From positions 24,490,001 through 24,554,000 of the forward strand of contig OZ024746.1 of NCBI GenBank assembly GCA_964016885.1: a stretch of DNA of 64,000 bases. Reading direction: 5' to 3'. The stretch's first letter is position 1, and the number at the start of each line of letters is the position of its first letter. This document shows, one piece after another, positions 15,440 to 15,734 of the stretch. Below the pieces are notes generated by a model. The model made no database searches and had not been told where the DNA came from. It saw only the letters and a list, made by a program, of their open reading frames with translations. Position numbers and translations under genes: made by a program. The stretch comes from Eledone cirrhosa (lineage: Eukaryota).

Positions 15440-15642
15440 ATATCCAGTGCTTTTATCGAGAATGACACAGCTAGAGACTTATAGAATACTTAGCTGTGTA
15501 CAGGAACTGGTTTGAAAGAGCGGTTGCCGGTCCGGCAGAAATTAGAAATTGGAATAAATGCTCTGAAATAGCGATATATATGTGAATATAGACATAGAAT
15601 ATTCGAAAATATTCTGTATGTTTATAATAAACATTATAATTC

Positions 15643-15734
15643 TATTCTATTCTATAGCGATTAGGTCTTCAAAATGTTTATTATAAACATACAGAATATT
15701 TTCGAATATTCTATGTCTATATTCACATATATAT
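15643..15734 (+). repeat. Inverted terminal fragment of the 310-bp unit
   Basis: Reverse complement of unit segment atatatatgtgaatatagac...ctatagaatagaata; merges into (TA)n. Confidence 0.9.

What the first reader, a model, noticed from the sequence alone, without database searches (positions are those of the whole stretch)
15551..15734. Array architecture points to a single rolling-circle reverse-transcription event by PLE machinery
Seen: the units look identical; the RNA-sense 3' end abuts (TA)n at 12137; the RNA-sense 5' end stops mid-unit at 15635 and is followed by an inverted 92-bp piece of the unit that ends on the unit's own ATATATAT and merges into (TA)n. The PLE insertions at 16096-18710 and 54790-56204 show the same layout of a truncated body plus inverted terminal piece. 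Inference: the array was written in one recent target-primed event on a circular template rather than by gradual unequal crossing-over.
Basis: partly seen in the sequence, partly recalled or inferred. Interest (0 to 1): 0.75.

Follow-up and report, generated by a model that had tools for sequence, protein, structure and literature searches.

The report
Two-ended rolling-circle copying builds ribozyme arrays
This repeat array is one insertion of a small hammerhead-ribozyme retroelement whose copies across the genome mostly have two inward-facing arms that start at two different fixed sites and share one sequence variant, which likely records a Penelope-like enzyme copying one RNA circle round and round from both ends of a DNA break.

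Summary
Observation confirmed: 11.28 identical 310-bp units, a 7-nt filler, then an inverted 92-bp piece, all inside (TA)n. Each unit carries a type I hammerhead, so this is a non-LTR retrozyme with about 14,700 units genome-wide. The inverted piece is a second arm. Insertions typically have two inward arms, one starting at unit position ~1 and the other at 27: 55 of 55 paired junctions, never like with like. Both arms carry the same haplotype in 53 of 56 insertions, against 12% between loci. All 11 full window units share a variant seen in only 7 other units genome-wide. Either arm can be the longer one. Two Hydra-type Penelope-like families in the window follow the same long/short rule (14 of 14; 16 of 17). 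Best reading: twin-primed rolling-circle reverse transcription of one RNA circle by Penelope-like machinery. Retrozymes, one-sided tails and two start sites are published; I found no paper joining them. Not shown: the RNA circle, ribozyme cleavage, the partner enzyme, raw-read support for this locus.

The parts
12008..12137 (.). Left (TA)n target flank
12138..15635 (-). Long arm: 11.28 identical 310-bp retrozyme units. RNA sense is the minus strand; the plus strand is the inferred first cDNA, started at site S1 (unit position 1)
12138..12163 (-). 26-nt 'tail' between the two start sites, present at only one end of the insertion
12164..12171 (-). AU tract of site S27 (unit 27-34) in the first unit; complementary to the (TA)n target
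12277..12277 (+). Rare variant at unit position 140 (A, family T), repeated every 310 bp in all 11 full units
12278..12360 (-). 13-bp stem enclosing the hammerhead, first unit; repeated every 310 bp
12297..12339 (-). Type I hammerhead motif, first of 11: CUGAUGA core at 12333-12327, GAAA, palindromic minimal stem III; predicted cut between 12303 and 12302
   Evidence: cleavage not tested
15636..15642 (.). 7-nt filler at the joint between the two arms
15643..15734 (+). Short arm: inverted unit positions 27-118 (RNA sense on plus), the inferred second cDNA, started at S27 from the right flank
15735..16085 (.). Right (TA)n target flank
16094..18710 (+). Comparator: young Hydra-type Penelope-like insertion (5'-truncated reading frame 16208-17617); inverted arm about 16094-16245 from its long start site, direct arm ending at its short site
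54790..56209 (+). Comparator: 3' end of a second, related Penelope-like family with hammerheads at 54979 (minus) and 56110 (plus); same long/short twin-arm layout

Best explanation
The array is one insertion of a 310-nt hammerhead retrozyme with two inward-facing arms started at two fixed sites, and it was likely written in a single event in which a Penelope-like enzyme cut (TA)n, used both DNA ends as primers on one RNA circle, and copied round it repeatedly. Shown: two arms, both reading as cDNA inward from the flanks; one start at unit ~1 (304-3) and one at 27; the same haplotype in both arms; free inner ends; exact passage across the predicted cut site; short homologies or fillers at the joint. 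Inferred: (1) multimeric transcripts self-cleave through paired hammerheads and monomers are ligated to circles, as shown for animal retrozymes in PMC7229834; (2) a Hydra-type Penelope-like protein, probably a dimer, binds near the 26-nt tail and nicks both strands; (3) one 3' end pairs with the AU tract at S27 and the other starts at S1 with little pairing; (4) each end is extended by strand-displacing synthesis for a random length (here 11.3 and 0.3 laps); (5) the two same-sense cDNA ends are joined by microhomology or filler and the second strands are filled in.
For: Pairing rule: 55 of 55 inward-facing junction pairs on contig C1 (first 222.5 Mb) are S1+S27. In an ordered sample chosen by an internal motif, 11 of 16 loci are two-armed: 10 S1/S27, 1 starting at 310 and 40, none like with like. 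Over 97 arm pairs in fetched loci: 85 S1/S27, 0 S1/S1, 0 S27/S27, 12 other. One template: arms identical in 53 of 56, against 368 of 3,080 between loci, with 24 haplotypes among the 56. Monomer bottleneck: the 140A variant occurs in 18 units genome-wide, 11 of them here and no more than 3 in any other locus. Precise wrap: 886 of 891 crossings of unit 161-170 match the arm majority, no worse than control windows. S1 arm longer in 47 and S27 arm longer in 38 of 85. Joint overlap of 2 nt or more in 36 of 62, against 18% by chance. Same rule in two Penelope-like families: 14 of 14 and 16 of 17. All 6 stem variants that I checked keep pairing, and of the core positions only U7 varies among locus-fixed variants. 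In vitro, a Penelope-like protein cuts and extends both strands, starts at two adjacent sites and is predicted to be a dimer (PMC11167929).
Against: No RNA, circle or cleavage was observed. Three of 56 insertions differ between arms, and some arms are mosaics, one with a 7-unit period, so template changes, multimeric circles or later rearrangement occur. A second 'singleton' variant that I tested (48C) proved to be a 370-unit subfamily. Position 140 changes recurrently on four other backgrounds, which weakens it as a lineage marker. Target-site duplications are visible in only 5 of 85 loci, against 0-2 in permutations. Arm lengths correlate only weakly (rho 0.25). In PMC11167929 ribozyme cleavage was not needed for insertion in vitro, and both strands used the same start sites.
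Confidence: 0.68

Rival explanations
1. Twin priming and rolling copying as above, but on two separate RNA circles that happen to come from one dominant source locus in that cell.
For: A predicted dimer could hold two RNAs (PMC11167929). Three of 56 insertions differ between arms. Arm lengths are only weakly correlated.
Against: Two equivalent RNAs give no obvious reason for the two ends always to use different start sites. With 24 haplotypes in circulation, 53 of 56 matches need near-complete single-source expression each time.
Confidence: 0.1
2. The template is a ribozyme-cut linear monomer and the enzyme jumps precisely from its 5' end back to its 3' end at each lap, as the DRT2 defence enzyme does on its RNA.
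For: It gives the same monomer bottleneck. Some subfamilies carry fixed 1-nt insertions at unit 161-163, beside the predicted cut.
Against: Jumps would likely leave lap-to-lap errors or stops at the cut site; 886 of 891 crossings are exact and only 5 of 97 joints have an end within 158-172. Circles are the abundant form in other animal retrozymes (PMC7229834).
Confidence: 0.1
3. One priming event, then fold-back or self-priming on the new cDNA (or on an antisense RNA), with the endonuclease resolving the far end at the internal AT tract. These are the published readings of Penelope inverted repeats and tails.
For: Proposed in PMC3846280 and PMC8557442. It explains the shared haplotype. S27 is itself a short (TA)n tract that the endonuclease could cut.
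Against: A folded-back arm cannot exceed the arm it copies, yet S1 is longer by more than one unit in 35 and S27 in 24 of 85 insertions. Single-unit differences are not mirrored: 4 of 54 in range recur in the other arm, although many of these may postdate insertion.
Confidence: 0.06
4. The enzyme copied a long uncut read-through transcript of an older array, so no circle is needed.
For: Multimeric RNAs accumulate in axolotl; cleavage was dispensable in vitro; one arm shows a 7-unit period.
Against: No array in this assembly holds 140A in more than 3 units, so none could template 11 such units; the parent could, however, lie on an unassembled haplotype or in another individual. Daughter arrays could never outgrow their parents.
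Confidence: 0.04
5. Gradual local unequal crossing-over from one inserted copy, or assembly homogenisation, made the identical units.
For: This is the route favoured for retrozyme arrays in bioRxiv 10.64898/2026.07.22.740005. Raw long reads for the locus were not available. A few long arms show higher-order patterns.
Against: It cannot give fixed paired start sites, inverted arms of one haplotype, or random inner ends. The assembly keeps unit-level differences elsewhere: 59 of 121 long arms have some, and a 70-bp repeat in this window is 96% identical.
Confidence: 0.02

Closest known systems
Metazoan non-LTR retrozymes (Cervera and de la Pena 2020, PMC7229834; passages plus sections 15 and 17 read)
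   Same: Tandem non-coding units of about 300 bp, low GC, one type I hammerhead each; palindromic minimal stem III as in HHR_Amex1 and a U-U at the base of stem II as in HHR_Amex2; the paper proposes that a primed circle yields tandem cDNA and names Penelope-like elements as likely mobilisers.
   Different: The paper has no occurrence of 'inverted' or 'rolling' in its main text and gives no junction evidence. Here most insertions are two-armed palindromes with two fixed start sites. Expression and circles are untested here.
Penelope-like elements, Hydra clade: inverted pseudo-LTRs and the one-sided 30-40 bp tail (Craig et al. 2021, PMC8557442, passages and section 11; Arkhipova et al. 2013, PMC3846280, passages)
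   Same: Head-to-head inverted copy, tail often at one end only, (TA)n targeting, hammerhead near the end.
   Different: Those papers ascribe the layout to self-priming on an antisense template or to endonuclease resolution. Here the rule is near-absolute, both arms can be many units long, and either can be the longer. The array encodes no protein.
PAc Poseidon element in vitro (Frangieh et al. 2024, PMC11167929; parts 1-2 of 4 read)
   Same: Two adjacent internal start sites that define the tail; AT-rich DNA cut and extended on both strands; predicted dimer.
   Different: Linear template; no difference in start site between strands was seen; inverted arms and rolling synthesis were not addressed in what I read. 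One site here (S27) can base-pair with the target.
Animal retrozymes as non-autonomous Penelope-like sequences (Li, Clavereau and Pollet, bioRxiv 10.64898/2026.07.22.740005; parts 1-3 of 5 read; supplements closed)
   Same: Links retrozymes to Penelope-like elements.
   Different: Evidence is co-occurrence and homology in vertebrates; arrays are ascribed to local amplification and unequal crossover; no junction analysis in what I read.
LINE-1 twin priming (recalled, no paper read)
   Same: Both target ends prime cDNA, giving an inversion joined by microhomology.
   Different: In LINE-1 the second primer lands at variable sites and the two pieces do not overlap; here the second site is fixed 26 nt away and both arms copy the same sequence many times.

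Membership tests
Non-LTR retrozyme | Tandem units of 150-450 bp with GC below about 45% | tested here: met
   310-bp unit, about 34-35% GC in the array
Non-LTR retrozyme | Type I hammerhead in every unit | tested here: met
   Core and stem I found in 11 of 11 units by a motif scan; structure-keeping variants. Rfam gave no hammerhead hit in 11500-19500
Non-LTR retrozyme | No coding capacity | tested here: met
   No frame of 100 aa or more within the array
Non-LTR retrozyme | Dispersed, multi-copy mobile element | tested here: met
   14,690 exact hits of a 25-mer; 1,017 and 1,167 exact flank junctions
Non-LTR retrozyme | Self-cleavage and expression as circular RNA | not testable with these tools
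   No RNA holder listed; needs bench work
Mobilised by an endonuclease-bearing Penelope-like element | Head-to-head inverted copy with a tail at one end only | tested here: met
   55 of 55; 85 of 97 with 0 like-with-like
Mobilised by an endonuclease-bearing Penelope-like element | Insertion into (TA)n, as the Hydra clade does | tested here: met
   Flanks printed; a few loci have other AT-rich flanks
Mobilised by an endonuclease-bearing Penelope-like element | Target-site duplication | tested here: inconclusive
   Lenient test 15 of 85 against 10-19 permuted; strict test 5 of 85 against 0-2; pure (TA)n hides it in the window
Mobilised by an endonuclease-bearing Penelope-like element | Shared end sequence with an autonomous partner | tested here: inconclusive
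   No partner among 30 sister-motif loci or the window's elements; search far from exhaustive
Hydra-clade Penelope-like element (neighbour at 16094-18710) | RWK-like and DKT motifs, CxCX5C linker, CxxC and CxH beside the C-terminal endonuclease | tested here: met
   821-aa frame in L175 shows RLRW, DKT, CNCRIKNKC, CNLC and CLH, read against section 11 of PMC8557442; no tree built; Pfam and PDB gave nothing

The most novel reading that the evidence does not exclude
Penelope-like elements integrate by an obligately asymmetric twin-priming reaction: a two-active-site complex holds one circular RNA in two fixed registers, primes both ends of the break and rolls both ways into the chromosome. This one mechanism would explain pseudo-LTRs, inverted repeats, the one-sided tail and retrozyme arrays, and would make kilobase palindromic satellite arrays in a single step.
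Probability: 0.55. Interest if true: 0.85.

Novelty: new variant of a known kind. Interest (0 to 1): 0.72.

Why it matters
How Penelope-like elements, the closest relatives of telomerase, form their tandem/inverted ends is named as an open problem in PMC8557442, and circle-templated birth of retrozyme arrays has so far been a proposal (PMC7229834) with a rival in local unequal crossover (bioRxiv 2026). This family gives more than a thousand young insertions whose junctions discriminate between the models. It also offers a ready test system: a 310-nt template, two mapped start sites and an active Hydra-type family with intact 821-aa frames in the same genome. If right, long homogeneous and palindromic repeat arrays can arise in one retrotransposition step, so array homogeneity need not reflect concerted evolution.

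Tried and rejected
Rfam scan of 11500-19500: no hammerhead family, only chance microRNA matches to simple repeats. Pfam and PDB searches of the Penelope-like proteins: nothing. The first DNA search returned many copies ending at unit position 140; I first read this as a pause site, but it is a search artefact, since copies that end there gain an A from (TA)n and match the window's rare 140A; the ordered sample has no end at 140. A DNA search with unit 141-310 returned nothing because common words are skipped. Lenient target-duplication test: uninformative. The 48C variant as a second private marker: rejected, it is a subfamily. Partner search through the sister tail motif: none found. Sequencing runs: no RNA holder listed; the only raw-read run laid 0 reads; the joint at 15600-15690 was not bridged in four contig sets from two samples, which shows neither presence nor absence. 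The 340-nt wrap-around contigs in three runs cannot tell a circle from a collapsed tandem. Twenty runs under 18 organism codes hold the unit; not interpreted. Earlier findings: none by sequence or by the specific words.

Full report
Observation. The array runs from 12138 to 15635: 11 full 310-bp units with no difference and 88 nt of a twelfth. A 7-nt filler follows, then an exact inverted copy of unit positions 27-118 (15643-15734) that ends on the unit's ATATATAT and merges into (TA)n. The two neighbouring elements have inverted terminal arms as described. The genome is 3.0 Gb and rich in (TA)n; it looked cephalopod-like to me, a recalled impression that I did not test.

What the unit is. On the minus strand each unit has a type I hammerhead: a 6-bp stem I, CUGAUGA, a stem II with a U-U at its base, GAAA and a palindromic minimal stem III, with the predicted cut between unit positions 166 and 165. 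It sits in a 13-bp stem (z -4.4). The stem III palindrome can pair between two copies, as in amphibian hammerheads that cleave as dimers (PMC7229834). Rfam found no hammerhead, so the call rests on the motif scan and on variation: the six stem variants I checked all keep a pair, and among locus-fixed variants only U7 of the core changes. A 25-mer has 14,690 exact hits in the genome. This is a non-LTR retrozyme.

The inverted piece is a second arm. Hit lists show plus-strand runs followed by minus-strand runs. In the first 16 loci on contig C1, chosen by an internal motif, 11 are two-armed; 10 start at unit ~1 on one side and 27 on the other, and one at 310 and 40. Genome-wide there are 1,017 exact junctions at site S1 and 1,167 at S27. 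Only the first 100 places of each were listed. I used the 100 S27 places and the 80 S1 places in the same 222.5 Mb, dropping 20 S1 places beyond it. All 55 inward-facing neighbours within 20 kb were S1 with S27; 70 junctions were unpaired. I fetched 40 of those 70; none proved to be like with like, most having a partner that the exact pattern missed, often starting at 304-309. Over 118 loci (the window and L031-L149; L068 and L069 dropped as decayed complex arrays) 97 arm pairs gave 85 S1/S27, none S1/S1 or S27/S27, and 12 with another start, some being internal joints or cut by the locus edge. That total is partly selected by the patterns; searches are the cleaner tests. Contigs of an independent run show loose (TA)n ends at unit 27 (9 contigs) and 306 (1 contig). 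Inner ends are spread round the unit and arms have a median of 1,055 nt.

One template per insertion. In 56 pairs with both arms covered twice, the majority sequences are identical in 53; between loci they match in 368 of 3,080 comparisons, with 24 haplotypes. Length variants of 308 and 311 bp are likewise shared by both arms. All 11 full window units carry 140A. Genome-wide only 18 units do, and no other locus has more than 3. A single cut-to-cut monomer of locus L031 has exactly the window's haplotype, a possible parent. Against this: 140A recurs on four other backgrounds, and a second apparent singleton, 48C, is a 370-unit subfamily. Three pairs differ between arms, and a few arms are mosaics, one with a 7-unit period.

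Circle or jump. Synthesis crosses the predicted cut 891 times in long arms and 886 crossings are exact, like control windows; 5 of 97 joints have an end near it. This favours a ligated circle over end-to-end jumps but does not prove it. No RNA data were available.

Twin priming or fold-back. A folded-back arm cannot be longer than its template arm. S1 is longer in 47 and S27 in 38 of 85 insertions, by more than a unit in 35 and 24. Of 54 single-unit differences in range, 4 recur in the other arm. Of 89 scorable joints, 27 have fillers; of the other 62, 36 overlap by 2 nt or more against 18% by chance. Two loci join through the unit's own 13-bp stem. Target duplications are clear in 5 of 85 loci against 0-2 in permutations; the lenient test was uninformative.

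Penelope-like machinery. The element at 16094-18710 belongs to a young family with intact 821-aa frames bearing Hydra-clade motifs. It has two start sites 86 nt apart, and all 14 insertions with both ends visible, among the window and 32 fetched loci, pair long with short. The element at 54790-56209 is the 3' end of a related family with a 4,047-bp unit; 16 of 17 two-armed loci pair long with short and one is unclassifiable.

What is known. Circle-templated tandem cDNA and Penelope-like mobilisation are proposed in PMC7229834 (its supplementary model figure is not held). A 2026 preprint links the two groups but favours local unequal crossover (supplements closed). Inverted ends and a tail 'often at one end' are described and ascribed to self-priming or endonuclease resolution. 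Two start sites, extension of both strands and a predicted dimer were shown in vitro. PMC5680766 was seen in passages only; DRT2 in a search listing only; LINE-1 twin priming is recalled. Nine searches found no paper describing two-armed retrozyme arrays, a strict pairing of start sites, or twin priming in Penelope-like elements; subscription papers, including the 2005, 2006, 2014 and 2017 Penelope papers cited in those texts, were not seen.

Verdict. The element is a known kind; the insertion anatomy and what it implies for Penelope-like integration appear to be new. Confidence in twin-primed rolling-circle copying of one circle 0.68; interest 0.72.

Noticed in passing
L182-L211; L146:3900-4800; L059:3950-4330; L048:3250-3500: Older sister retrozyme families with different hammerheads share the tail motif and the sequence just 3' of it (4,568 exact hits); several show the same two start sites. 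A candidate recognition element for the mobilising enzyme.
   Followed up: partly
window 19079-19250: Small head-to-head palindrome inside (TA)n whose right arm runs about 85 nt further: apparently another family with the long/short layout; a similar copy is in L190.
   Followed up: no
window 19400-19520: Fragment sharing 26 of 28 nt with the array's hammerhead core but with different flanks; a twin-armed copy is in L191. Possibly another retrozyme family or a partner's end.
   Followed up: no
unit position 140; L031, L032, L033, L034, L035: The same substitution recurs at the base of the 13-bp stem on several backgrounds and in 3 of 5 units of one array; may be a copying-error hotspot or a modified template base.
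   Followed up: partly
L086, L074, L133, L145: Mosaic or complex insertions: two linked variants in irregular units, a 7-unit period, a haplotype change within an arm, and several nested inversions.
   Followed up: no
window 26560-28129, minus strand: Older frameshifted Hydra-type Penelope-like copy, 32-51% identical to the young family.
   Followed up: partly
window 522-938, minus strand: Short stretch that translates like the start of the young Penelope-like family's reading frame, next to (TA)n: another 3' end of that family.
   Followed up: no
window 41136 (minus) and 19981 (plus): Further hammerhead-like motifs from the scan; the first resembles the Penelope-like type.
   Followed up: no
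window 5691-10843: 70-bp C/A-rich minisatellite, about 73 copies, 96% identical, with indels: a contrast to the identical retrozyme units.
   Followed up: no
window 156-479 and 51121-51546: Two fragments that resemble C-terminal parts of non-LTR retrotransposon proteins (recalled resemblance).
   Followed up: no
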